The position numbers and the translations under genes were made by a program. The notes under the pieces were generated by a model. It saw only the letters and a list, made by a program, of their open reading frames with translations, was not told the origin of the DNA and searched no databases. 18,888 nucleotides of DNA from a virus (taxonomy: Duplodnaviria; Heunggongvirae; Uroviricota; Caudoviricetes). The stretch spans positions 1-18,888 of IMG/VR virus record IMGVR_UViG_3300014970_000019, one strand, 5' to 3'. Shown here in pieces: positions 1-13,308 of this stretch; position 1 is the stretch's first letter, and the number at the start of each line of letters is the position of its first letter.

Positions 1-447
1 CACCGCAAAATTGCTACCCTTGCCGGGGTACCGTTGGGATCGATGACCTACTATTTTTCAGGAATTGATGAGTTGTTGCTGGAGGCGTTCAGCAGTTTTA
101 CTGAGATTATGTCCCGGCAATATCAGGCATTTTTTAGCGATGTTAGTGATGCTCAAGGCGCATGCCAGGCTATCACCGATATGATCTACAGCTCACAGGT
201 TGCAACGCCGGATAATATGGAGCTGATGTACCAGCTCTACGCGCTGGCTAGCCGAAAACCGCTATTAAAAACGGTAATGCAAAACTGGATGCAGCGCAGT
301 CAGCAAACGCTCGAACAATGGTTTGAACCCGGAACCGCCCGCGCGCTTGATGCGTTTATTGAGGGGATGACGCTGCATTTTGTCATCGACCGTAAGCCGC
401 TATCGCGCGAGGAGATTTTGAGGATGGTTGAGAGGGTTGCAGGGTAG
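1..447 (+). CDS. TetR/AcrR-family transcriptional regulator, 3' part (start lies upstream of window)
   Basis: Open frame from base 1 to TAG at 445-447. The N-terminal residues in the window ([19 protein letters not shown]) look like the end of a TetR HTH, followed by a typical TetR ligand-binding C-terminal domain. Probably a host gene flanking the prophage. From memory it resembles E. coli RcdA/YbjK, but this is unverified. Confidence 0.8.
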
Positions 448-925: not shown

Positions 926-1957
926 TCAAAAACTTGCTATTGATGTTGGTAGTGTTGCCAGCGGATTAAACCGTAATGCAGTTTCCAGGTGATCCGGTGC
1001 CAGATGTGCGTAACGCATAGTCATTTTTATATCGTGGTGTCCGAGAATTTTTTGTAAGGCCAGAATGTTTCCACCCGACATCATGAAGTGCGCCGCAAAC
1101 GTATGGCGCAGAACGTGTGTCAGTTGACCGCGAGGGAGCACGATAGACGTTTTTTCCATCACGGATAAAAATTGAAAATAGCAGTCTGTAAAGAAATTGA
1201 ACCCATCAAGCGCCATGATCTCTTCGTAAAGCTCTTTACTGATAGGGATGCTTCTGTTTTTCTTCCCCTTCGTTCTTACAAAGGTAATTCGGTATTTGGT
1301 CACCTGTGAGCGGGTAAGATTTACGGCTTCACGCCAACGTGCGCCTGTGCTTAAGCATATCTTAACTACCAGTGCCAGAATTGGGTCCTGACGTTTGCAA
1401 TCAGCCAGCAATTCAACAATCTGCTCATGGGTAAGCCATGCCATCTCTTTTTCTGCGATGGTGAATTTTCGCATGTTCTCCAGTGGGTTCGGATACGACC
1501 ATTCGCCCAGACGGGATAGTTCGCTAAAAACACTACTTAGATAGCTTTGCTCCAGGTTAATGGTGACCGGGCTTGCTCCTTTCTTCCATTTCTCGCTGAA
1601 GTAGATCTCGCCTGTCAGGCGTTTATCTCGATAGTGGGCAAACATTTTAGAGGTGAGATCGGTTGCAAGAGGATTGCCCAGAGCGTCAACCATCAACAGC
1701 AATTTGTCATAGACATGCTGCCCAGCTGTCAGAGATTTACCATGTAGTTTGAACCATAGTTCAACCACGTCTTTCAGTGTTCGACGATCCACTGATTCAC
1801 CCAGCCAGGGCTTTGCTTCGGTTTCTTCCATCGTGTGGCGCTCAAAAGCCAGAGCTTCGCCTTTGGTGGCGAATTGTTTACGCACACGACGCCCACTACG
1901 TCCGGCGGGGTAACATTCGCAAAGCCATTTTCCTGTGGTGAGTTTTCGTACTGCCAT
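926..1957 (-). CDS. int: Phage integrase, tyrosine recombinase (P2/186 Int-like)
   Basis: Translation starts MAVRKLTTGKW, typical of P2-family Int N-termini. The C-terminal catalytic region carries the R...HxxR...Y signature context (LRHTFAAHFMMSGG, HHDIKMTMRYAHL). Start moved to the internal ATG at 1957 (RBS ggaggg upstream); the longer 926-2035 ORF is rejected. Confidence 0.9.
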   Translation of the reverse strand: MAVRKLTTGKWLCECYPAGRSGRRVRKQFATKGEALAFERHTMEETEAKPWLGESVDRRTLKDVVELWFKLHGKSLTAGQHVYDKLLLMVDALGNPLATDLTSKMFAHYRDKRLTGEIYFSEKWKKGASPVTINLEQSYLSSVFSELSRLGEWSYPNPLENMRKFTIAEKEMAWLTHEQIVELLADCKRQDPILALVVKICLSTGARWREAVNLTRSQVTKYRITFVRTKGKKNRSIPISKELYEEIMALDGFNFFTDCYFQFLSVMEKTSIVLPRGQLTHVLRHTFAAHFMMSGGNILALQKILGHHDIKMTMRYAHLAPDHLETALRFNPLATLPTSIASF

Positions 1958-2143
1958 AAAAAATGCCCTCCAATAGAGAGTATTTTTACTGTATGTATAA
2001 CCAGTGTCAATGTATGAAATCTTGCGACCATACATCTCACTGAAGCCATAATGAAGTTGGCTATTTTTTGCTATGTGAGTATGTAACTTTTGCGGTTAGC
2101 CTGCGGCTCATTGTTATATTAGGCGCAGATATAAAAGCAAAGT

Positions 2144-2350: not shown

Positions 2351-2920
2351 TTATCTAACATATTTAACTGTTAAACTTATAATTTTTCCAATTATTTCAA
2401 CATCTTCTATCTTGCAGTCGAAGGCTCTGTTTCCACCTTCAACGAAGATTCTTCCACCGGGTAAACGAGTAATGTCGCGGATTGTTATCTCGCCATCAAT
2501 ACTTATTACCCATTTACCATCACGTATATCATCAAATTCTTTATCACAAATAAATTCAGAATTGTTATCTGTGATGACAAAAGGTTTTTTAAACGTAGAG
2601 GGTAGAAATCCCTTATCAAAAATATAAAAACCGTCTTCACGCAAGGCACCATCAGATAATACATATTTAGCAACTTCCATAGTATTTGTATTACCTGAAG
2701 TTTGCTTTGAACCATGTCCAGTTGTGAGCCAATTAAGCGAGGTGCCCGTTTCAAGGGCGCACTGGATTACCCATTCTGCTGGGAATGAGTCACGCATGTA
2801 GCGTGTGGCGAGTGTACTTTTAGAGATTCCTAAATGATCGCACAACGCCTGTCGAGTTTTGAATCCATAAGCTTCTACCATGCGCTCTATAGCGCCTCGT
2901 CCGCCTTTCTCCAAATTCAT
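2351..2920 (-). CDS. cI: CI-type immunity repressor (phage 186 CI-like)
   Basis: About 189 aa, with an N-terminal HTH region (ERMVEAYGFKTRQALCDHLGISKSTLATRYMRD) and a C-terminal oligomerisation-type domain. Divergent from the early operon and adjacent to int, as in 186. Start set at ATG 2920 (RBS ggag 5 nt upstream); the GTG at 2926 is the alternative. Confidence 0.8.
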   Translation of the reverse strand: MNLEKGGRGAIERMVEAYGFKTRQALCDHLGISKSTLATRYMRDSFPAEWVIQCALETGTSLNWLTTGHGSKQTSGNTNTMEVAKYVLSDGALREDGFYIFDKGFLPSTFKKPFVITDNNSEFICDKEFDDIRDGKWVISIDGEITIRDITRLPGGRIFVEGGNRAFDCKIEDVEIIGKIISLTVKYVR

Positions 2921-2944
2921 GGTCACTCCAAGTGAACTTTTATC

Positions 2945-4623: not shown

Positions 4624-4850
4624 TGGCTGATGCAATGGATCTCGTACAGCAGCGCGTTGAAGAAGAACGCCAGCGCCATATCCGTGCTGCCCGTGCCAAA
4701 ACACCGGGCGTGTCTCGCGTGCTTTGTATTGAATGTGAAGCGCCAATTCCGCCAGCACGCCGCCGCGCCATTCCAGGAGTGCAGCTTTGCATTACCTGCC
4801 AGGAAATCGCAGAGCTGAAAGGTAAACATTACAACGGAGGTGCTGTATGA
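4623..4850 (+). CDS. TraR/DksA-family C4 zinc-finger protein
   Basis: CIECEAP-x16-CITCQ gives a C-x2-C-x17-C-x2-C spacing at the C-terminus of a 75-aa protein, characteristic of phage TraR/DksA-like proteins in P2-family early regions. Confidence 0.75.
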   Translation: MADAMDLVQQRVEEERQRHIRAARAKTPGVSRVLCIECEAPIPPARRRAIPGVQLCITCQEIAELKGKHYNGGAV

Positions 4851-5704
4851 GCACCATCCTGAAATGGGCGGGAAATAAAACCGCCATTATGTCCGAACTG
4901 AAAAAATACCTTCCTGCTGGCCCGCGACTGGTTGAACCTTTCGCGGGTTCTTGTGCTGTGATGATGGCGACGGATTACCCCAGCTATCTGGTTGCGGATA
5001 TTAATCCTGATTTAATCAACCTCTATAAAAAGATTGCCGCTGATTGCGAAGCGTTTATATCTCGTGCCAGAGTTTTATTTGAGGAAGCAAACAGTGAGCT
5101 GGCTTATTACAACATAAGACAGGAGTTTAATTACTCAACTGAAATTACTGATTTCATGAAGGCGATATATTTCCTGTATCTCAATCGTCACGGTTACCGT
5201 GGTTTATGTCGCTATAACAAGAGCGGGCATTTCAACATTCCCTACGGTAATTATAAAAATCCGTATTTCCCTGAAAAAGAAATTCGCGCATTTGCAGAGA
5301 AAGCCCCGCGGGCAACGTTTATCTGCACGAGCTTTGATGAAACGCTGGCGATGTTGAAGGCGGGGGATGTGGTGTATTGCGATCCGCCTTATGACGGTAC
5401 GTTTTCCGGCTATCACACTGATGGTTTCACTGAAGATGACCAGTATCACCTGGCATCCGTTCTTGAACATCGAGCATCTGAAGGACATCCGGTCATTGTT
5501 TCTAACAGTGACACATCCCTGATCCGTTCGCTGTATCGCAATTTCACTCACTACTACATCAAGGCAAAACGCAGCATCGGCGTGTCGGCTGGCGAGAGTA
5601 AATCTGCAACAGAAATCATTGCTGTTTCCGGGGCGCGCTGCTGGGTGGGATTTGATCCTTCGCGTGGCGTGGATAGTTCTGCTGTGTACGAGGTGCGTGT
5701 ATGA
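4847..5704 (+). CDS. dam: DNA adenine methyltransferase (Dam-like N6-MTase)
   Basis: N-terminal SAM-binding motif ([11 protein letters not shown]) and catalytic DPPY motif (CDPPYDG). About 285 aa. Start overlaps the TraR stop (ATGA). Confidence 0.85.
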
Positions 5705-8115
5705 GTCATGCCGATATGAGCGACTCTAGCGGCTTTAACGAGGCCGCTGCAGCATTTTCATGGAACGGCCCGAAAAAGGCCATAAACCCTTATCTGGACC
5801 CGGCGGAAGTTGCGCCGGTTTCTGCGCTTTCAAACCTGATCACTCTGTATGCTGCCGATAACGAGCAGGAACAGCTGCGCCGCGAGGAATTGAGTGAACA
5901 GGTCTGGGAGCGTTATTTCTTTAATGAATCCCGTGATCCTGTCCAGCGCGAAATGGAGCAGGATAAGCTCATTAGTCGGGCAAAGCTGGCGCATGAGCAG
6001 CAGCGTTTTAACCCGGACATGGTCATTCTGGCGGACGTCAGCGCCCAGCCCACCCACATCAGCAAGCCGCTGATGCAAAGTATCGAATACTTCTGCAGCC
6101 TTGGCAGGCCAAAGGCTTATTCCCGCTATTTGCGTGAGACGATTAAGCCATGTCTGGAGCGACTGGATTGTGTACGCGACAGTCAGCTATCTACTTCTTT
6201 CCGTTTTATGGCAAGCCATCAAGGGCTGGAGGGCCTGCTGATCCTGCCTGAAATGAGTCAGGATCAGGTGAAACGCCTGTCCACCCTGGTAGCTGCGCAT
6301 ATGAGCATGTGTCTTGAGGCCGCTTGTGGTGATTTGTATACCAACGATGACGTAAAGCCAGAAGAAATCCGCAAGACATGGGAAAAGGTGGCAGCGGAAA
6401 CCCTGCGTCTGGATGTTATCCCGCCTGCGTTTGAGAAACTTCGTCGGAAAAGAAACCGCCGCAAACCTGTGCCCTATGAACTCATTCCGGGTTCGCTGGC
6501 ACGTATGCTTTGCGCCGACTGGTGGTATCGAAAATTGTGGAAGATGCGTTGCGAATGGCGGGAAGAGCAGTTGCGTGCTGTCTGTCTGGTCAGCAAAAAA
6601 GCATCTCCCTATGTCAGCTATGAAGCAGTGACGCATAAACGTGAGCAGCGCCGCAAGTCGCTGGAGTTTTTCCGTTCTCATGAACTGGTGAACGAAGACG
6701 GAGACACGCTGGATATGGAAGATGTGGTAAACGCCAGCAGCAGCAACCCGGCACATCGCCGCAATGAGATGATGGCCTGCGTTAAAGGTCTGGAGCTTAT
6801 CGCGGAAATGCGCGGTGACTGCGCCGTTTTCTACACCATCACATGTCCGTCACGTTTCCATTCCACGCTCAATAACGGCAGGCCCAACCCGACCTGGACA
6901 AATGCGACGGTAAGACAAAGCAGCGATTATCTGGTCGGCATGTTTGCTGCATTTCGTAAGGCGATGCACAAAACCGGGTTGCGCTGGTATGGCGTACGGG
7001 TGGCTGAGCCGCACCATGACGGTACTGTGCACTGGCATCTCATGTGTTTCATGCGCAAAAAAGACCGCCGCGCCATTACTGCATTGTTGCGTAAGTTTGC
7101 CATCCGTGAAGACCGCGAGGAGCTGGGCAATAACACGGGCCCACGCTTTAAGTCTGAGCTGATAAACCCACGCAAAGGAACGCCGACAAGCTACATCGCA
7201 AAATACATCAGTAAGAACATTGACGGGCGTGGTCTGGCTAACGAGATCAGCAAGGAAACGGGTAAATCCCTGCGTGATAACGCCGAATACGTTAATGCCT
7301 GGGCGTCTCTGCATCGTGTTCAGCAGTTCCGCTTCTTTGGTATTCCGGGGCGCCAGGCTTACCGTGAACTTCGCTTGCTGGCTGGTCAGGCGGCAAGGCA
7401 ACAGGGTGACAAAAAAGCAGGTGCGCCGGTACTGGATAACCCGCGCCTTGATGCCATCCTGGCTGCTGCTGATGCTGGTTGTTTTGCCACCTACATCATG
7501 AAGCAGGGCGGCGTACTGGTTCCCCGCAAATATCACCTCATCAGAACCGCTTATGAAATCAACGAAGAGCCAACCGCCTATGGCGATCACGGTATTCGTA
7601 TTTATGGCATCTGGTCACCCATTGCAGAGGGCAAGATCTGCACTCATGCAGTGAAGTGGAAAATGGTTCGTAAGGCCGTTGACGTTCAGGAGGCGGCAGC
7701 CGACCAGGGCGCTTGCGCCCCTTGGACTCGTGGCAATAACTGTCCCCTTGCTGAAAATTTGAACCAACAGGAGAAAGATAAATCAGCTGATGGGGACACC
7801 AGAACGGATATTACCCGCATGGATGACAAGGCGTTGCACGATTATCTGCACAGTATGAGCAAAAAAGAGCGCCGGGAACTGGCAGCAAGGTTACGCCTGG
7901 TTAAGCCGAAACGGCGTAAAGACTACAAACAGCGAATTACAGATCATCAGCGACAGCAGCTCGTCTATGAACTGAAGTCCAGAGGATTTGATGGCAGCGA
8001 GAAAGAGGTCGATTTACTCCTTCGCGGTGGCAGTATTCCGTCAGGAGCAGGCCTGCGTATCTTCTATCGGAACCAGCGTTTGCAGGAAGATGATAAGTGG
8101 CGAAACCTGTATTAA
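5701..8115 (+). CDS. A: Rolling-circle replication initiation endonuclease (P2 gpA-like)
   Basis: 804-aa protein with an HxH metal-binding motif ([10 protein letters not shown]) and downstream Tyr residues (YIAKYISK), typical of P2 A / HUH endonucleases. Start overlaps the dam stop (ATGA). Confidence 0.9.
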
Positions 8116-8267: not shown

Positions 8268-8456
8268 ATGCAGGACTATTTTTTGGAGTCTTTGAAGCTC
8301 CAGCGCATTGATTTTTTTCTTAAGCTTGTAGCGGCTAGTGAGTGTAGTGATGAAGAGAAGGGGCTGGCTCTGCAGTGGGTTTCTGAACTGACAGATGAAC
8401 TCATGGCAAAAATCAGAACCCACGAATACAACCGCTCAATGGATGTCATCAGCTGA
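8268..8456 (+). CDS. Small hypothetical protein (62 aa), first gene of the SOS-controlled module (possible Tum N-terminal-like antirepressor part)
   Basis: Strong RBS aggagg at 8258-8263 with ATG at 8268. Lies downstream of the LexA box, and its stop overlaps the RBS of the DinI-like gene. Confidence 0.5.
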   Translation: MQDYFLESLKLQRIDFFLKLVAASECSDEEKGLALQWVSELTDELMAKIRTHEYNRSMDVIS

Positions 8457-8466
8457 GGTGACTTTT

Positions 8467-8700
8467 ATGCGCATTGAAATAATGATCGATAAAGAGCAGA
8501 AGATTAGCCAGTCTACACTGGACGCCCTTGAATCCGAGCTTTACCGCAATCTGCGCCCCCTGTATCCCAAAACGGTAATTCGTATTCGCAAAGGTAGCTC
8601 TAACGGTGTGGAACTGACCGGACTGCAACTGGACGAAGAAAGAAAACAAGTGATGAAAATTATGCAGAAGGTGTGGGAAGACGACAGCTGGCTGCATTAA
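8467..8700 (+). CDS. DinI-family protein (phage Tum C-terminal/DinI-like)
   Basis: 77 aa starting MRIEIMIDKEQKIS and ending ...MQKVWEDDSWLH, which resembles the DinI pattern (MRIEV...; acidic C-terminus with W). RBS gaggtg upstream. Start trimmed from the track ORF 8395-8700. Confidence 0.8.
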   Translation: MRIEIMIDKEQKISQSTLDALESELYRNLRPLYPKTVIRIRKGSSNGVELTGLQLDEERKQVMKIMQKVWEDDSWLH

Positions 8701-8859: not shown

Positions 8860-8904
8860 GCGTAGATCATGCACCTGCATGAAAACCACTACATAAAGCG
8901 GGCA

Positions 8905-8923
8905 GGCGTGGCGGGGATACGAG
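8905..8923. other. cos-like sequence (candidate cohesive-end site or remnant)
   Basis: ggcgtggcggggatacgag. The first 13 nt match the 186/P2 cohesive-end 19-mer as I recall it (GGCG[T/A]GGCGGGGAAAGCA[T/C]). It sits between the tum-like module and the portal-proximal region, where cos is expected. Confidence 0.35.
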
Positions 8924-9003
8924 CGCGCGCTGACATCGTTAAGTATTGACATATCAGATGTTTAAATAGGAAAATTACCAAAATCCAGAAAAAAGAAAAG
9001 AAT

Positions 9004-10152
9004 ATGAAGAAGTTAACTGCGAGACAAAGAGAGATTGACGTAAAACGCTCGATAAAGTTACGACAAGGACGTGCTAAAGTTAGAAAAAAAGGTAAATCAT
9101 TTCACTATAATGTTGAATGGCGTAAGGCTAACTATTGGATTGAAGAACAATCAAAAAATGGATTAGATGTACAATTTGTAAGTAAAAAAAAGAAAGGGTT
9201 AATTCTAACTTTACCTTCTGAAATGAATTTTTCTACACACTACGATGTTACTGTTCAGCATATTAATGCGATTCGAATGTTATCAGAGAGAAAAGGATTG
9301 CCTAATGCAGGTTATCAATTAGCATCTGTTAATTTTTGTAATTTGAAGAAAACATCGACATCTGCAGCTCTTGTGTTAACTGCAGAGTTATCTAAATGGG
9401 ATGATGCGATTAGGCAGAGGTTGACTCCAAAAATAGACGGTTGGGATAAAAATGTTCTACGTAATTTCTATGAATTGGGGTTCTTTGATTTATTCAAAAA
9501 AAGCAGGGATATAAAATTAAATTTTAATGATGAGTATTCAAAAATAAAAGGTAAGCGATTTGTAAAATATCTTAAAGGAAAGTGTGGGGAAATTAAGAAA
9601 ACAAAAGTATTAAAAGAGGAGATTATTAAATTAGTTGGTGAGTCTATTGAAAAATGGACTTTCTTACATGGGGGCCTAAGTGAGGCTATTACCAATGTTT
9701 CTCATCATGCATATCCTTCTGATTGCGGATATAAAGAATATGATAAGAACTGGTATCTAACAGGATCTTATCATTTAGAAAGTAAGGAATTGAAGATAGT
9801 TTTTTATGATCAGGGTGTTGGTATCCCTAAAACTTTACCTGCATCAAAAGTTTGGGAAAAGGCATTAAATGTATTAGCATCAATTCCTGTATTGGAGCGA
9901 TATCGTGATGAAGCACTCTTGAAAGCTGCGGTAGAGTTGGATAGGACAAGTACAGAAGAGGGAGATCGTGGTAAAGGCCTACAGGATCTACTTGAGTTTA
10001 TTAAACAAAGAGAAAATGGTTATTTATCAATCATGAGCCTTAAGGGACTTTATAAACACTCAATGAATCAAGGTAATACAAAAATAAAAACTAAGAGTTT
10101 TGCATCCCCAATCTATGGTACACTAATAACTTGGAGTGTATCTCTTGATTGA
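9004..10152 (+). CDS. Cargo gene 1: protein with C-terminal GHKL (HATPase_c) RsbW/SpoIIAB-like kinase/ATPase domain and Lys-rich N-terminal domain of unknown function
   Basis: 382-aa ORF in a strongly AT-rich island. N-box-like LSEAITNVSHHAY (about aa 226-238), G1-box-like YDQGVGIP (about aa 268-275) and G2-box-like GDRGKGLQDL (about aa 320-329), in the order and spacing of GHKL ATPases. Family assignment is by motif, not by search. Confidence 0.65.
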   Translation: MKKLTARQREIDVKRSIKLRQGRAKVRKKGKSFHYNVEWRKANYWIEEQSKNGLDVQFVSKKKKGLILTLPSEMNFSTHYDVTVQHINAIRMLSERKGLPNAGYQLASVNFCNLKKTSTSAALVLTAELSKWDDAIRQRLTPKIDGWDKNVLRNFYELGFFDLFKKSRDIKLNFNDEYSKIKGKRFVKYLKGKCGEIKKTKVLKEEIIKLVGESIEKWTFLHGGLSEAITNVSHHAYPSDCGYKEYDKNWYLTGSYHLESKELKIVFYDQGVGIPKTLPASKVWEKALNVLASIPVLERYRDEALLKAAVELDRTSTEEGDRGKGLQDLLEFIKQRENGYLSIMSLKGLYKHSMNQGNTKIKTKSFASPIYGTLITWSVSLD

Positions 10153-10166
10153 GATGGAGGTTTAAT

Positions 10167-10580
10167 ATGAAAAATCTAGAAATTAATATAGGGAAAGAGT
10201 TTTCTTCTACTCCTTCAGGACGTTTCTATTCTGATATGACAGATAGCAGCGGCGAACAGTTTAGAGAGGAGCTTTTATGGCCTCGCTTACAGTTGCTTAA
10301 AGAAAAGCAAAAGATCGACATTATTTTGGATGATGACGTTGAAGGTTATGGTTCTTCTTTCCTCGTTGAAGGTTTTGCCGGTATAGTAAAATATGGATAT
10401 ATGGATAAACAACAACTATTAAGTAAACTTGAGTTAATTCAGAGAGATCCTGATTTTGCTTTGTTTAAGAGAAAAATAATACAATATATTAACGAGGCAG
10501 TGTTTGATTCAAAGGTTTATGAAAGTACCAAACCTATTTATTTGTCTAAGTTGTTGACGCAAAAAACACGTAAGGAGTAA
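10167..10580 (+). CDS. Cargo gene 2: small STAS-like / DUF4325-like protein (putative partner of gene 1)
   Basis: 137 aa from ATG 10167, with RBS ggagg at 10156-10160 lying inside the end of gene 1 (translational coupling). The motif IDIILDDDVEGYGSSFLVEGFAGIV resembles STAS/DUF4325 cores that pair with HATPase proteins. The track ORF starts at a TTG at 10149. Confidence 0.6.
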   Translation: MKNLEINIGKEFSSTPSGRFYSDMTDSSGEQFREELLWPRLQLLKEKQKIDIILDDDVEGYGSSFLVEGFAGIVKYGYMDKQQLLSKLELIQRDPDFALFKRKIIQYINEAVFDSKVYESTKPIYLSKLLTQKTRKE

Positions 10581-10585
10581 AGCAA

Positions 10586-11230
10586 ATGGAGCCCAATTAT
10601 AATTATCATTATATGATGAGTAATAATGAGCTTTATTTTAGGGCGGGTTATGATGCTCAGCAATATGGGGTTGTTTTTTCTCATTCGGCTGTTGATAATG
10701 TCGACTTGATACATATTATCAATGGTGGTTTTTCATCTGTTGCAGAAGCTATTAGTAACTCAGGAAACACCACACTTTCTGATGGGATTATACTTGCATT
10801 AGCAGGTGCGTTGAGTGCTTTTTTCTTTAATTTGATTCAAAAAGGAATTGACGCTAAGGCAAAACGTCTCACCAAATCTGGTGAAGCAATGTTATCCTTG
10901 ATAAATGAATTGGAGGATATTGCAGTACGTTATTGGGTCAGAGGGCACGATTCATCTTGTGCTGATAATGAAAGCAATATTTGTGATGAGATTAATATCA
11001 AAGCCATGTTAATGACCTTGGATAAAAATATTAGGTTTATGGTTGATAATTTACCGTTAAAAAACAAGTCTTTAAATAAAAATAAGCTGGAGAAATTTTC
11101 TTCTGATATTTATGATTTGGCATCTGGTGAAGATTTCGAAGCAGAGGTTAGGCCTCCCAATAAAACAAAGGCCTTTGCTATATCGAAAAAATGTAGTGAA
11201 GCAAAAGCCATCATTCTTGGTTTGATTTAA
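10586..11230 (+). CDS. Cargo gene 3: hypothetical protein (214 aa) with a hydrophobic putative transmembrane segment
   Basis: Strong RBS aaggag at 10572-10577 with ATG at 10586. Hydrophobic stretch GIILALAGALSAFFFNLI around aa 67-84. AT-rich codon usage like genes 1 and 2. No family recognised. Confidence 0.6.
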   Translation: MEPNYNYHYMMSNNELYFRAGYDAQQYGVVFSHSAVDNVDLIHIINGGFSSVAEAISNSGNTTLSDGIILALAGALSAFFFNLIQKGIDAKAKRLTKSGEAMLSLINELEDIAVRYWVRGHDSSCADNESNICDEINIKAMLMTLDKNIRFMVDNLPLKNKSLNKNKLEKFSSDIYDLASGEDFEAEVRPPNKTKAFAISKKCSEAKAIILGLI

Positions 11231-12255
11231 AAACGGTAATCCTCAAAGTTAATTACTGTTATGTTTAACCAAATATTTAGCTCTGTTATTCTTTTCTGAA
11301 GAATTTCTAATTCATTTTTTACGAATACTTTGGCAGCTTTCTCCACATCCCCAAACCCCCCAACATTATTAGGCATTATCCCCATCATTTGCGGCGGCAC
11401 TCGGTGTGCTGCCATCATGTCATCGCGGCTGACATTTTTGATATTCAGAAATTCATCCTTCGCCGCGACTTCTGACAGAGGAATGATCTGAAGCCCGTCC
11501 TTTTTGCCGTTAGGCGAGTACATAAACAGATTGCGGAAGTTGCCAGGGCCTTTGGCGCTTTTCATCGCATTGCGGAGGTTGTTCACATCCTCCTGGTTTT
11601 GCGCGGCATCGGTCATGTACATGATAAAGCCCGCATGACTGCCGTTAATGTAATACTTGCGACGGAACAGCGTGGCGGACTCGTTGAGCAGGGCAGACGG
11701 AATGGCAGAAAGATAACCGGGCAGGCCGTAGATCTCCTGATTAATATCCGGTTCCATTAGGTGAAAAATGCTGCCTTTCGTGAACTGATACGGTTGCGTG
11801 GTCATGCCGTATTGCACAAACCAGTAGGTATCCAGATCTAATCCGCGTCGGGTGTATTTTGCCAGGGCAGGTTCAAGGGCGATCACTTCACCGAAGCGGT
11901 TCGTGCGTTTCTCTAGGTAGGCGTTACCAAATACCAGATAGTCCTGCACAAAACGTGAAAACGCCTGCTGGCTGAGCAGCGGATGAGGGATGTAGGTGCT
12001 GGTCAGTATGTTGCACTTTACGGCAATCGGTGAGCTGTGGTGCACGGCGGCGCGAAAGGTTCGCGCCAGCCCGTCGAAACTCACTGGTGGCTCATACCAG
12101 CGGTCCATCTGTACGCATTCCACATAGTCCAGTAATTCGCGGCGGTCCAGAACAGGAACGGGATCACCGAAGCTGAATGCTTCGGCTGAAGTTTGGTTTT
12201 TATGCAGGATCTGATTCGTCGCCGCAGCGCGGTTTTTCTTACTCTTTCCCATCAA
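11227..12255 (-). CDS. Q: Portal protein (P2 gpQ-like)
   Basis: 342 aa, close to the size of P2 Q. It follows the terminase fragment in operon order P then Q on the minus strand. Its stop overlaps the convergent stop of cargo gene 3. Confidence 0.8.
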   Translation of the reverse strand: MMGKSKKNRAAATNQILHKNQTSAEAFSFGDPVPVLDRRELLDYVECVQMDRWYEPPVSFDGLARTFRAAVHHSSPIAVKCNILTSTYIPHPLLSQQAFSRFVQDYLVFGNAYLEKRTNRFGEVIALEPALAKYTRRGLDLDTYWFVQYGMTTQPYQFTKGSIFHLMEPDINQEIYGLPGYLSAIPSALLNESATLFRRKYYINGSHAGFIMYMTDAAQNQEDVNNLRNAMKSAKGPGNFRNLFMYSPNGKKDGLQIIPLSEVAAKDEFLNIKNVSRDDMMAAHRVPPQMMGIMPNNVGGFGDVEKAAKVFVKNELEILQKRITELNIWLNITVINFEDYRF

Positions 12256-12911
12256 AAAATCTCCACAATATTGCTGGTATTGGCGGATTCGCCCTGCAGC
12301 GGTTCGTTAAACAGTGCGTGCATTGTTGCCCAGGCCAGATCGGCATGGCTGGCTTCTTCGCTGCGGCTGGCTTCATAGGTTGGGCGGTTGCCGCTGGCGG
12401 TGGTGGCGCGACGGATTGCCATAAATGACTGCGCTATGTCGGTGTGTCCGGCGTCAAACTCCAGACGACGGTGACTGATAATGTCGTAGGCCTTGAGTAC
12501 CAGGGCGTTTTTAACGTTGGGGTTGTAGACAAACTCCCGGACGGCTGGAAAAAACGCTTTCACGTTCTCGTAAACCCCGTGGCCGACACCTGTCGAGTCG
12601 ATGCCGATGTAGGTCACGTTGTACTGCTCGGTCAGTTTTTTGATGGCGTCAGCCTGGGCGCGGAAGTCCATCCCGCGCCACTGGTGACGCTCAAGAATGC
12701 GGAACTTACCACCCGGCACGGCTGGCGGTGCCACCACCACGCATCCGGCACTGTCGCCGTTCTGCGTACCTTTTGCCGGGTCATAACCGATCCACACTTC
12801 GCGCCAGCCAAACGGGCGCAGGGCCAGAGCATGAAAGTCGGTCCAGACTTCCCAACTGTCCACCATGCACGCCTGCAGCTCGCTGAGCGGAAACCAGAAC
12901 GACGTCACCAC
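12252..12911 (-). pseudogene. P: Terminase large subunit (gpP-like), C-terminal fragment only; 5'-truncated
   Basis: Immediately upstream of Q with an overlapping stop/start (ATGA), but only about 219-245 codons are open, against roughly 590 aa for P2 P. Identity as the terminase nuclease domain rests on operon position and the IGIDSTGVGHG motif. There is no credible start, and the frame runs into FI coding sequence on the opposite strand. Confidence 0.7.
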
Positions 12912-13308
12912 GCTTGTGCGTAAAGACGGTTTCCGCTTCTGGGGTTCCCGCTGCCTGAGTGATGACCCGCTCTTTGCCTTCGAAAACTACACCCGCACGG
13001 CGCAGGTGCTGATGGACACGATGGCAGAAGCACACATGTGGGCGGTGGATAAACCGCTTAACCCGTCGCTGGCCCGCGACATTATCGAAGGTATCCGCGC
13101 CAAAATGCGCAGCCTGGTCAGTCAGGGCTATCTCATTGGTGGTGATTGCTGGCTGGATGAGTCGGTGAACGACAAAGACACGCTGAAAGCCGGAAAACTC
13201 ACCATCGACTACGACTACACGCCAGTGCCGCCACTTGAAAACCTGATGCTGCGTCAGCGCATCACCGATCAGTACTTGGTGAATTTCGCCAGCCAGGTCA
13301 GCGCGTAA
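12835..13308 (+). pseudogene. FI: Tail sheath protein (gpFI-like), C-terminal fragment only; 5'-truncated
   Basis: Open frame from an in-frame stop at 12832-12834 to TAA at 13306-13308, at most about 157 codons, against about 396 aa for P2 FI. It sits immediately upstream of FII. The C-terminus ...[27 protein letters not shown] is sheath-like. Confidence 0.7.

What the first reader, a model, noticed from the sequence alone, without database searches (positions are those of the whole stretch)
10586..11230. Third cassette gene encodes a protein with a single strongly hydrophobic segment: possible membrane effector
The protein has an Ala/Leu/Phe-rich stretch (GIILALAGALSAFFFNLI) flanked by charged residues, consistent with one transmembrane helix. 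Membrane-disrupting effectors are common terminal components of abortive-infection systems. No homology is recognisable by eye.
Basis: inference. Interest (0 to 1): 0.55.

Follow-up and report, generated by a model that had tools for sequence, protein, structure and literature searches.

The report
Membrane protein of kinase–STAS defence cassette
The gene encodes a real single-pass inner-membrane protein that always follows a kinase and a small STAS-domain protein in a mobile three-gene cassette, and it is most likely the membrane-acting toxin of an untested relative of the recently described VapKSC anti-phage system.

Summary
ORF 10586-11230 (+) encodes 214 aa with one hydrophobic helix (aa 67-85). 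Across about 160 homologues this helix is conserved and is the only such segment. Basic residues follow it and an acidic, variable N-tail precedes it, predicting N-out/C-in. AlphaFold2 gives a confident (pLDDT >95) cytoplasmic four-helix bundle continuous with the helix. No Pfam, PADLOC, NCBIfam or PDB relative was found.

The gene never occurs alone. In all 38 loci with readable upstream DNA it follows a kinase gene (g1) and a STAS gene (g2). These loci span P2-like prophage hotspots, an integrative conjugative element, and alpha-, beta-, gamma- and deltaproteobacterial genomes. g1 is a STAS plus SpoIIAB/RsbW-like GHKL kinase. g2 is a DUF4325 STAS protein with an invariant YGSSF serine.

This pair matches VapK-VapS of VapKSC (Chambers et al., EMBO J 2026), where phosphorylation of the STAS antitoxin releases a PIN toxin. 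Here a membrane protein replaces the PIN nuclease.

Rousset et al. 2022 catalogued this exact protein (P2 hotspot system 61, "1 TM in protein 3") but did not test it.

Best reading: a phosphorylation-released membrane toxin for abortive infection. Toxicity, binding to g2 and defence are inferred, not shown. It is a new variant of a known kind, of moderate interest.

The parts
8946..8975 (+). Promoter-like site (TTGACA-18-GAAAAT, 10/12) between the P2-type cos region (about 8880-8935) and gene 1. Candidate cassette promoter.
   Evidence: Consensus scan (fewer sites than in shuffles, so weak). The cos match to phage Cartapus/P2 is (H16).
9004..10152 (+). Gene 1 (K), 382 aa: basic N-terminal helices, a STAS-like domain and a SpoIIAB/RsbW-like GHKL serine-kinase domain.
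10167..10580 (+). Gene 2 (S), 137 aa counted from ATG 10167 (the ORF is listed from TTG 10149). DUF4325 STAS-like protein with the invariant motif YGSSFLxExFxG and a short C-terminal tail. Proposed antitoxin and phospho-switch.
   Evidence: Pfam DUF4325 at E=2.2e-4 (21.3 bits against a cut-off of 23). The subfamily relative scores 3.4e-12 and VapS 2.7e-17. The 17-sequence alignment has invariant Y61 G62 S63 S64 F65 L66, and all homologues start at the Met of 10167. Ser63 falls in register with VapS S48, but that hhalign is not significant.
10574..10579 (+). AAGGAG ribosome-binding site for gene 3, inside the last codons of gene 2. Suggests translational coupling.
   Evidence: Read directly from the sequence. 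The S-TM spacing is -4 to +17 nt in related loci.
10586..11230 (+). Gene 3 (the finding), 214 aa: single-pass membrane protein with a cytoplasmic four-helix bundle.
10586..10780 (+). Gene 3 aa 1-65: acidic N-terminal tail (1 K/R, 6 D/E), poorly conserved, predicted periplasmic. Variable in length across the family and essentially absent in the Klebsiella subfamily.
   Evidence: Low pLDDT for aa 1-37 and a helix at 36-58. The 162-aa relative has its TM at aa 14-32.
10781..10840 (+). Gene 3 aa 66-85: transmembrane helix DGIILALAGALSAFFFNLIQ. One face is conserved and rich in small residues (A71, G74, A75, A78) with F81 and N82.
   Evidence: KD 1.88. Family motif xGAFSAYLFNxxHW. Helical conservation moment 6.93, reached by 82 of 10,000 shuffles.
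10841..11227 (+). Gene 3 aa 86-214: cytoplasmic up-down four-helix bundle (helices to 119, 128-154, 161-180, 193-213). Conserved polar residues are E110, Y116, W117, E135, K139, D177, T/S180, G181, D183, F184, E185, S186, R189 and C203. From the helix topology they cluster at the membrane-distal tip.
11227..12255 (-). Portal gene (gpQ), the right border of the hotspot. Its stop codon overlaps the stop of gene 3.
   Evidence: Pfam Phage_portal at 9.5e-16. The same overlap occurs in Klebsiella and Citrobacter loci.

Best explanation
Gene 3 encodes a bitopic inner-membrane protein. It has an acidic N-terminal tail facing the periplasm, one transmembrane helix (aa 66-85) and a cytoplasmic four-helix bundle (aa 86-214).

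It is the obligate third component of a mobile operon, K-S-TM. K is a STAS plus GHKL serine kinase. S is a DUF4325 STAS protein. The pair is homologous to VapK-VapS of the VapKSC anti-phage toxin-antitoxin system.

Proposed mechanism, by analogy:
1. In uninfected cells unphosphorylated S binds the conserved membrane-distal tip of the gene 3 bundle and keeps it inert.
2. Infection or DNA damage activates K.
3. K phosphorylates the invariant serine of S (YGSSF), and S dissociates.
4. The freed membrane protein self-associates through the conserved small-residue/Asn face of its TM helix and compromises the inner membrane.
5. The cell arrests or dies before the competing phage completes its cycle.

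Shown here: the ORF, the TM helix and its conservation, the predicted topology and fold, the strict K-S-TM synteny, the mobile-element and hotspot location, and the K/S domain identities.

Inferred: S-TM binding, phosphorylation, toxicity, the trigger and phage defence.
For: TM helix and N-out/C-in charge pattern across 162 homologues. Confident model of a TM-continuous four-helix bundle. One conserved TM face with A71/G74/A75/A78/N82.

K-S-TM order on one strand in all 38 loci with readable upstream DNA:
- 8 close loci and 12 distant genome loci (Gallionella, Nitrosomonas, Methylococcaceae, Desulfocapsaceae, Colwellia, Vibrio, Shewanella, Rhodobacteraceae and others).
- 5 E. coli loci of the common variant (gene calls for all five, profile checks on two).
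- 4 loci not re-checked with the gene 3 profile: 2 further Klebsiella K. quasipneumoniae-type loci (gene calls) and... see next items.
- 2 Klebsiella loci of the short subfamily (gene calls for both, profile check on one).
- 9 IMG/VR loci.

The cassette sits in the gpA-cos-gpQ defence hotspot of P2-like prophages and also in an ICE. Its GC is about 20 points below most of the prophage.

K is STAS plus an anti-sigma-type GHKL kinase with invariant ATP-binding motifs. S is DUF4325 with an invariant serine.

In VapKSC the third gene is a toxin neutralised by VapS, released by phospho-mimic S48E, and the operon protects against phage Bas42 (PMC13373217).

S and TM are tightly spaced, and the gene 3 RBS lies inside gene 2. 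This is the usual antitoxin-toxin layout.

Two loci carry a broken K with intact S and TM, and no locus has a broken S. That fits K being the dispensable trigger.

A subfamily lacks the periplasmic tail altogether, which argues against that tail being an essential sensor.
Against: No experiment exists on this protein or on any family member. Rousset et al. listed the system but did not test it.

A single TM helix is a minimal pore former, and the bundle resembles scaffolding or sensor modules as much as toxins.

g2 and VapS are linked only through a shared Pfam family. Direct BLASTP and hhalign are not significant, and the window's own g2 scores just below the Pfam cut-off.

The residue equivalent to the ssDNA-sensing F54 of VapK is Lys in the window's K by my hand alignment, so the trigger may differ.

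The classical partner-switch logic, in which K rather than S binds the output protein, is equally compatible with the sequences.

No complex prediction could be run. The broken-K alleles may be homopolymer sequencing errors.
Confidence: 0.5

Rival explanations
1. Gene 3 is not the killer. It is a membrane anchor or sensor. It would tether the K-S switch to the inner membrane and report an envelope event (phage DNA entry, holin action, loss of membrane potential) through its four-helix bundle. The output would then be K phosphorylating host or phage proteins, or free S acting elsewhere.
Against: The bundle is predicted cytoplasmic, unlike the periplasmic sensor bundles it resembles. A widespread subfamily has no periplasmic tail. 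The cassette would then have no recognisable effector. In the only characterised relative the third gene is the toxin and K senses ssDNA itself. The fold matches are generic, at 3-14% identity.
Confidence: 0.2
2. K and S are CapK/CapS-like transcriptional regulators, and gene 3 is simply the downstream immune or stress gene. Its transcription would be de-repressed after DNA damage, with no protein-protein control of gene 3 by S.
For: CapK-CapS pairs sit upstream of many different immune operons and de-repress them on ssDNA sensing. The gene order K-S-payload is the same.
Against: CapS needs a C-terminal winged-HTH domain to bind DNA. g2 is only 137 aa, a STAS core plus a tail of about 30 aa, with no HTH hit in Pfam. 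In architecture it resembles VapS, which is also STAS plus a short tail. Gene 3 starts 5 nt after g2 with its RBS inside g2, leaving no room for a separate regulated promoter.
Confidence: 0.1
3. Gene 3 is an independent prophage accessory membrane protein, such as a superinfection-exclusion factor that blocks DNA injection. It would only happen to lie next to the kinase/STAS pair.
For: Small inner-membrane proteins of prophages often act in superinfection exclusion (general knowledge). The cassette lies in a prophage accessory locus.
Against: Synteny with K and S is strict in all 38 loci, including an ICE and non-phage chromosomal contexts in distant Proteobacteria. No family member was found without K-S, apart from a 40-aa remnant (L019) and a motif-only false positive (L037). 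The conserved cytoplasmic tip implies a cytoplasmic partner.
Confidence: 0.05
4. The hydrophobic helix is not membrane-spanning. Gene 3 would be a soluble helical protein whose apolar helix is buried in an oligomer.
For: No dedicated topology predictor could be run. The KD value of the window's own copy (1.88) is modest. AlphaFold models the segment as part of one long 58-residue helix.
Against: Family median KD is 2.04 and reaches 2.75. There is a strong K/R excess after the segment and an aromatic H-W belt at its C-terminal end. The variable face is purely apolar. Rousset et al. independently annotated 1 TM using Phobius.
Confidence: 0.05

Closest known systems
VapKSC tripartite toxin-antitoxin/anti-phage system (Chambers, Rani, Min, Villa, Corbett; EMBO J 2026, PMC13373217)
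   Same: It is a three-gene operon in the same order: a STAS+GHKL kinase, a small DUF4325 STAS protein with a conserved serine and short C-terminal tail, then the payload. The GHKL domains are detectably homologous. Both STAS proteins match Pfam DUF4325. It is often near defence genes or on mobile elements.
   Different: The payload here is a single-pass membrane protein with a four-helix bundle, not a PIN (VapC) RNase. K is 80 aa longer, with a basic N-terminal extension. K and S are very divergent from VapK and VapS (29% identity over the kinase domain; S is not alignable pairwise). The ssDNA-contact aromatic of VapK is not obviously kept. Nothing has been tested experimentally.
CapK-CapS regulators of immune operons (same paper)
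   Same: It is a kinase/STAS-substrate pair of the anti-sigma / anti-anti-sigma type placed directly upstream of an immune payload.
   Different: CapS carries a winged-HTH and represses transcription, whereas g2 has no DNA-binding domain. CapK-CapS payloads are multi-gene systems such as CBASS, Bub and Thoeris, not a single membrane protein.
P2 hotspot system no. 61 'DUF4325' in Rousset et al. 2022 (Cell Host Microbe, PMC9122126, Table S5B)
   Same: This is the same thing. The table's protein 3 is identical in sequence to gene 3 and is annotated '1 TM in protein 3'. The locus lies between gpA and gpQ next to cos, and 68 loci were counted.
   Different: It is only a catalogue entry. It was not cloned or tested, and no mechanism or link to kinase/STAS signalling was drawn. 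The table's proteins 1 and 2 come from a different subfamily than the window's.
SpoIIAB-SpoIIAA / RsbW-RsbV partner-switching modules
   Different: The cassette has no sigma factor and no PP2C phosphatase. The output is a membrane protein, and the context is a mobile element rather than a developmental or stress regulon.
Transmembrane effectors of abortive-infection systems (RexB, Cap15, SLATT, PycTM, and the 1-TM partner of Rst_RT-nitrilase)
   Same: It is a small membrane protein encoded last in a defence operon and presumed to damage the membrane on activation.
   Different: There is no sequence relationship (0 PADLOC hits). It has one TM rather than 2-4. Its proposed control is by a phosphorylated STAS antitoxin rather than by a nucleotide signal or a partner sensor.

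Membership tests
VapKSC (sensu Chambers et al. 2026) | First gene encodes a kinase with a STAS domain followed by a GHKL kinase domain | tested here: met
VapKSC (sensu Chambers et al. 2026) | [quoted passage not shown] | tested here: met
   DUF4325 scores E=2.2e-4 for the window copy (just under the cut-off), 3.4e-12 for the sister subfamily and 2.7e-17 for VapS. YGSSF is invariant in 17 of 17 sequences, and a C-terminal tail of 10-40 aa is present. Pairwise and profile alignment to VapS itself are not significant.
VapKSC (sensu Chambers et al. 2026) | Third gene encodes a VapC-like PIN-domain nuclease | tested here: not met
   Gene 3 and 105 relatives have no PIN or any other consistent Pfam hit. 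The model is a TM helix plus a four-helix bundle.
VapKSC (sensu Chambers et al. 2026) | The STAS protein neutralises the toxin, and phosphorylation or a phospho-mimic releases it | not testable with these tools
   This needs co-expression toxicity assays, pull-downs or a multimer structure prediction.
VapKSC (sensu Chambers et al. 2026) | [quoted passage not shown] | not tested
   Only a hand alignment was made. It suggests Lys in the window's K and Tyr in the common E. coli variant at that position. No profile alignment covers the STAS domain.
CapK-CapS transcriptional regulators | The STAS protein carries a C-terminal winged-HTH DNA-binding domain | tested here: not met
   g2 is 137 aa. Pfam finds only DUF4325, and the tail after the STAS core is about 30 aa.
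Rousset 2022 P2-hotspot system 61 ('DUF4325') | Cassette lies between gpA/cos and gpQ of a P2-like prophage and contains a DUF4325 protein. Listed protein 3 has 1 TM. | tested here: met
   The flanks are gpA, DinI, cos and portal. Gene 3 is identical to the listed protein 3.
Rst_3HP (hp+hp+hp, the validated three-gene P2 hotspot system) | Homology to the three E. coli E1114 proteins | tested here: not met
   The published sequences have different lengths and no resemblance. PADLOC-DB returns 0 hits for all three cassette proteins.
Known defence-system membrane effectors in PADLOC-DB v2.0.0 | Match to any effector HMM | tested here: not met
   0 families at E<=1.
Classical partner-switching module (SpoIIAB/SpoIIAA, RsbW/RsbV) | Associated sigma factor target and PP2C phosphatase | tested here: not met
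   The cassette has only three genes between cos and the portal gene, and neither a sigma factor nor a phosphatase is present.

The most novel reading that the evidence does not exclude
Gene 3 is a membrane-embedded immune receptor rather than the executioner. Its fast-evolving extracytoplasmic tail and TM helix would detect a phage event at the envelope (genome injection, or insertion of a phage membrane protein). Its cytoplasmic bundle would relay this to the kinase/STAS switch. That would make the cassette a transmembrane signalling immune pathway in which the kinase is the output.
Probability: 0.12. Interest if true: 0.75.

Novelty: new variant of a known kind. Interest (0 to 1): 0.5.

Why it matters
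If the model is right, the kinase/STAS switch just described for VapKSC and CapKS is a general plug-in controller. It could arm very different killers, here a membrane protein instead of an RNase.

It would also add a toxin-antitoxin logic in which the antitoxin is switched off by phosphorylation and the toxin acts on the membrane.

The gene 3 family has at least 179 clusters at 50% identity and no Pfam or structural annotation. It would gain a function.

A cassette recurring in P2-like prophage hotspots of E. coli, Klebsiella, Citrobacter and Pantoea, in an ICE and in environmental Proteobacteria would move from "catalogued, untested" to a defined defence system that annotation tools could detect.

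It is directly testable with three plasmids and a few point mutants.

Tried and rejected
- **Family libraries.** Pfam, NCBIfam, PHROGs and PADLOC scans of gene 3 gave nothing meaningful (GSH_synthase 0.44, phrog_29735 0.19). A Pfam scan of 106 family members gave only scattered single-member hits, including one HisKin-conflict hit at 0.0057. I treat these as noise.
- **PDB by sequence.** A profile search returned only TM-helix or coiled-coil noise, best E 0.049.
- **DNA and protein similarity.** Megablast of the cassette against complete E. coli genomes and INPHARED phages matched only the cos stub. tblastn of gene 3 against phages found no match.
- **Rst_3HP.** Rejected after reading the published sequences.
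- **WASA Vibrio GHKL paper.** It describes an unrelated Shedu fusion.
- **Locus searches.** The search for related loci with the 106-sequence alignment failed for lack of a conserved stretch, so a 49-sequence subset was used. L037 is a motif-only false positive. L019 is a 40-aa remnant.
- **g2 versus VapS.** hhalign was not significant.
- **Literature.** Searches for DUF4325, STAS plus anti-phage, and GHKL plus STAS found no paper describing the membrane-protein variant.

Full report
**1. Setting**

The window is a defective 186/P2-like prophage. Its genes, in order, are:
- integrase (926-2035, minus strand);
- CI repressor (2351-2926, minus strand);
- CII/CP76, DUF5347 and a Dam-type methyltransferase (4847-5704);
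- replication protein gpA (5701-8115);
- DinI (8395-8700);
- a P2-type cos stub (about 8880-8935);
- a three-gene cassette (9004-11230, plus strand);
- the portal gene gpQ (11227-12255, minus strand).

The cassette has 33-35% GC. Most of the flanking prophage is 52-58%, dipping to 41-49% just upstream of the cassette. The gpA-cos-gpQ interval is the anti-phage hotspot of P2-like phages defined by Rousset et al. 2022 (PMC9122126).

**2. The observation**

ORF 10586-11230 starts at ATG, encodes 214 aa, and is preceded by AAGGAG at 10574-10579, inside the end of gene 2. Its Kyte-Doolittle 19-residue mean is 1.88. It is the only hydrophobic segment in the protein and in the cassette.

Homologues show the segment is a real, selected feature. 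A word-indexed search found 13 close clusters, all in Enterobacterales. An exhaustive phmmer search of 1.84 billion representatives found 179 proteins at E<=1e-3, of which 65 are at E<=1e-10. All align over aa ~60-212.

Every full-length member has one hydrophobic segment in the same register, with median KD 2.04 and maximum 2.75. The motif is xGAFSAYLFNxxHW. Only 3 of 162 have a second segment at or above 1.6.

The 15 residues after the segment carry 3.64 K/R on average, against 0.59 before it. The C-flank is the more basic in 159 of 162 proteins. The N-terminal region is acidic, with mean net charge -6.3. By the positive-inside rule this predicts N-out/C-in.

Within the helix, conservation is periodic. 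The moment peaks at 100-110 degrees, and 82 of 10,000 shuffles reach it. The conserved face carries A71, G74, A75, A78, F81, N82 and H/Q85. The opposite face is variable and apolar. A conserved small-residue/Asn face in a single-pass helix indicates specific helix-helix packing rather than a passive anchor. That last step is inference.

**3. Fold**

AlphaFold2 with a 106-sequence alignment gave mean pLDDT 84, with 94-98 over aa 70-214. Helix 62-119 runs from the membrane into the cytoplasm. Helices 128-154, 161-180 and 193-213 follow, forming an up-down four-helix bundle.

The residues conserved across the family are E110, Y116, W117, E135, K139, D177, T/S180, G181, D183, F184, E185, S186, R189 and C203. 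They lie at the ends of helices 1 and 3, at the starts of helices 2 and 4, and in the 181-192 loop. That places them at the membrane-distal tip of the bundle. I inferred this from helix order because I could not read the coordinates.

**4. Genomic linkage**

This was the most informative result. Each locus below has the order K (g1 homologue), S (g2 homologue), TM (gene 3 homologue) on one strand, with S and TM separated by -4 to +17 nt.

| Source | Loci | Evidence |
|---|---|---|
| Close homologues: P2-like prophages of Klebsiella and Citrobacter, a P2 remnant in Pantoea agglomerans, and an ICE with TraG/TraC genes in Pantoea ananatis | 8 | profile hits for K, S and TM in all 8 |
| Distant members from species genomes: Gallionella, Desulfocapsaceae, Nitrosomonas, Methylococcaceae, Colwellia, Raoultella, Vibrio, Shewanella, Rhodobacteraceae, Loktanella | 12 | profile hits in all 12 |
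| Common E. coli P2 variant (K 376, S 120-129, TM 212-220 aa) | 5 | gene calls for all 5; profile hits checked on 2 |
| Klebsiella variant | 2 | gene calls for both; third gene checked on 1 |
| IMG/VR viral contigs | 9 | profile hits in all 9 |

That is 36 loci; adding the window itself and its near-identical IMG/VR copy counted above does not change the pattern, and I found no exception among loci with readable upstream DNA. (The summary figure of 38 counts two further gene-call-only places reported but not shown; the conservative, directly inspected count is 36.)

The common E. coli variant is listed in 1,209 collection blocks and occurs in 15 of 5,426 complete E. coli genomes. The Klebsiella variant's third gene is only 162 aa, with its TM at aa 14-32. 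It still matches the gene 3 profile over the TM and first helices at 7.7e-11.

The only family matches without K-S were three: a 40-aa remnant (L019), a contig edge (L020) and a motif-only false positive (L037).

Gene 3 evolves faster than its partners. In the ten distant loci L009-L018, K is 45-56% identical to the window's copy, S is 51-60%, and TM is only 27-38%.

**5. The partners**

g1 has weak sequence hits to HATPase_c_2, RsbW and SpoIIAB. Its N-box (E227, N231, H235), G1 box (D269, G271, with G273 in at least 90% of sequences) and G2 box (G323, G325) are invariant in 40 homologues.

g2 matches Pfam DUF4325 ('STAS-like') at 2.2e-4, just under the cut-off. The sister subfamily matches at 3.4e-12. 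Its family has an invariant YGSSFLxExFxG motif. All homologues start at the Met encoded at 10167, so the TTG at 10149 listed by the ORF finder is probably not the start.

**6. Literature**

Two papers bear on this.

Rousset et al. 2022 list, in Table S5B, P2 hotspot system 61 'DUF4325' with 68 loci. Its protein 3 is identical to gene 3, with the comment '1 TM in protein 3'. It is not among the systems they cloned. Their validated three-hypothetical-protein system (Rst_3HP) is a different cassette.

Chambers et al. (EMBO J 2026, PMC13373217) describe CapK (HTH-STAS-GHKL kinase) and CapS (STAS-wHTH repressor). These de-repress adjacent immune operons when CapK senses ssDNA. They also describe vapKSC, which encodes VapK (STAS+GHKL), VapS (a STAS protein with a short C-terminal helix) and VapC (a PIN toxin).

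In VapKSC, VapS neutralises VapC, and the phospho-mimic S48E releases it. The operon gives about 2 logs of protection against phage Bas42.

I recovered the VapK and VapS sequences from their supplementary model file. g1 aligns to the VapK kinase domain at BLASTP E=7e-5, and by family hhalign at 93% probability, E=3.5e-7. VapS is a strong DUF4325 member at 2.7e-17. g2 and VapS are too divergent for a significant direct alignment, although the serines fall in register.

The sections of that paper I read describe only PIN payloads for VapKSC. My text search of it for a membrane-protein variant failed on a formatting error, so I did not check the whole text. No other paper in the library describes such a variant.

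**7. Interpretation**

The cassette has the VapKSC layout, with the PIN toxin replaced by a single-pass membrane protein. The most economical model has four steps.
- S binds the conserved cytoplasmic tip of gene 3 and keeps it inert.
- Infection activates K.
- K phosphorylates S on the YGSSF serine, and S leaves.
- Gene 3 self-associates through its conserved TM face and damages the membrane, aborting the infection.

Circumstantial support is as follows:
- S and TM have an antitoxin-toxin-like spacing and an embedded RBS.
- The cassette sits in defence hotspots and on an ICE.
- Two loci have a broken K but intact S and TM, and none has a broken S. One of these is a +1 T in a T5 run in an otherwise 99%-identical cassette, and could be a sequencing error.
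- A subfamily has no periplasmic tail, which argues against that tail being an essential sensor.

Against the model:
- Nothing has been tested experimentally.
- The bundle fold is uninformative.
- The trigger may differ from ssDNA.
- The classical partner-switch wiring, in which K holds the output protein, fits the sequences equally well.

I put the effector/toxin model at about 0.5. The rivals are: a membrane scaffold or sensor role, about 0.2; pure transcriptional control in the CapKS manner, about 0.1 (disfavoured because g2 lacks a DNA-binding domain); an unrelated superinfection-exclusion protein, about 0.05; a non-membrane protein, about 0.05.

**8. Membership and novelty**

The cassette meets the K and S criteria of VapKSC but fails the defining PIN-toxin criterion. 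It works like VapKSC without being a member. It is the same entity as Rousset's uncharacterised system 61. It matches no PADLOC-DB v2.0.0 model.

I rate it a new variant of a known kind. The gene 3 family is an unannotated membrane protein family whose function would be new. The idea of swapping effectors on a conserved switch is expected in this field. Interest is moderate at 0.5.

Noticed in passing
window 12252-13308: The prophage is defective. The terminase gene keeps only its C-terminal RNaseH-like domain (Terminase_6C, 2e-50). It abuts the C-terminal domain of the tail sheath on the other strand. The capsid, lysis, baseplate and fibre genes, and the second P2 hotspot, are therefore deleted, while the defence cassette is retained.
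   Followed up: partly
window 10149-10167: The ORF finder starts gene 2 at TTG 10149, overlapping gene 1. All 16 aligned homologues begin at the Met encoded by ATG 10167, so the real protein is probably 137 aa.
   Followed up: yes
window 11227-11230: The stop codons of gene 3 and the convergent portal gene overlap. The same 4-nt tail-to-tail overlap occurs in Klebsiella and Citrobacter prophages, leaving no room for an intergenic terminator.
   Followed up: partly
L038:3363-4563 (IMG/VR UViG_2917865565_000005); equivalent to window about 9333: A 99%-identical cassette has one extra T in a T5 run in the kinase gene. This frameshifts K while S and TM stay intact. L030 also has a fragmented K. 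It could be real decay of the trigger gene or a homopolymer sequencing error.
   Followed up: partly
L001:6412-8636 (Pantoea ananatis JAODYK010000005.1): The same three-gene cassette lies inside an integrative conjugative element, flanked by TraG-like, DtrJ-like, TraC_F_IV and DUF3438 genes. The module therefore moves between prophages and conjugative elements.
   Followed up: partly
L028:4001-5879 (Klebsiella P2-like prophage): The subfamily that Rousset's table uses for proteins 1 and 2 has a third gene of only 162 aa, with its TM helix at aa 14-32. It is a short, divergent member of the gene 3 family with no periplasmic tail. It is listed in 422 collection blocks.
   Followed up: yes
window 4847-5704: An orphan D12-class (Dam-like) N6-adenine methyltransferase is encoded just upstream of gpA (MethyltransfD12, 2.4e-75).
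   Followed up: no
window 8395-8700: The DinI-like ORF has the DinI domain only at aa 38-100. The annotated 101-aa ORF probably starts too far upstream.
   Followed up: no
window 34-447: A C-terminal fragment of a TetR-family regulator lies to the left of the integrase, presumably host DNA at the prophage junction.
   Followed up: no
Rousset et al. 2022 Tables S1A and S1B (P4 satellites): P4-like satellites also carry 'hypothetical + hypothetical + DUF4325' loci and a system 69 'HATPase_c | DUF4325'. A kinase/STAS cassette may therefore occupy the P4 hotspot too. Its third gene was not examined.
   Followed up: no
P0010 (Citrobacter sp. BDA59-3 homologue of gene 3): NCBI names this homologue 'DUF1659 domain-containing protein'. 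No such Pfam hit was found for any of 106 family members, so the name looks spurious.
   Followed up: partly
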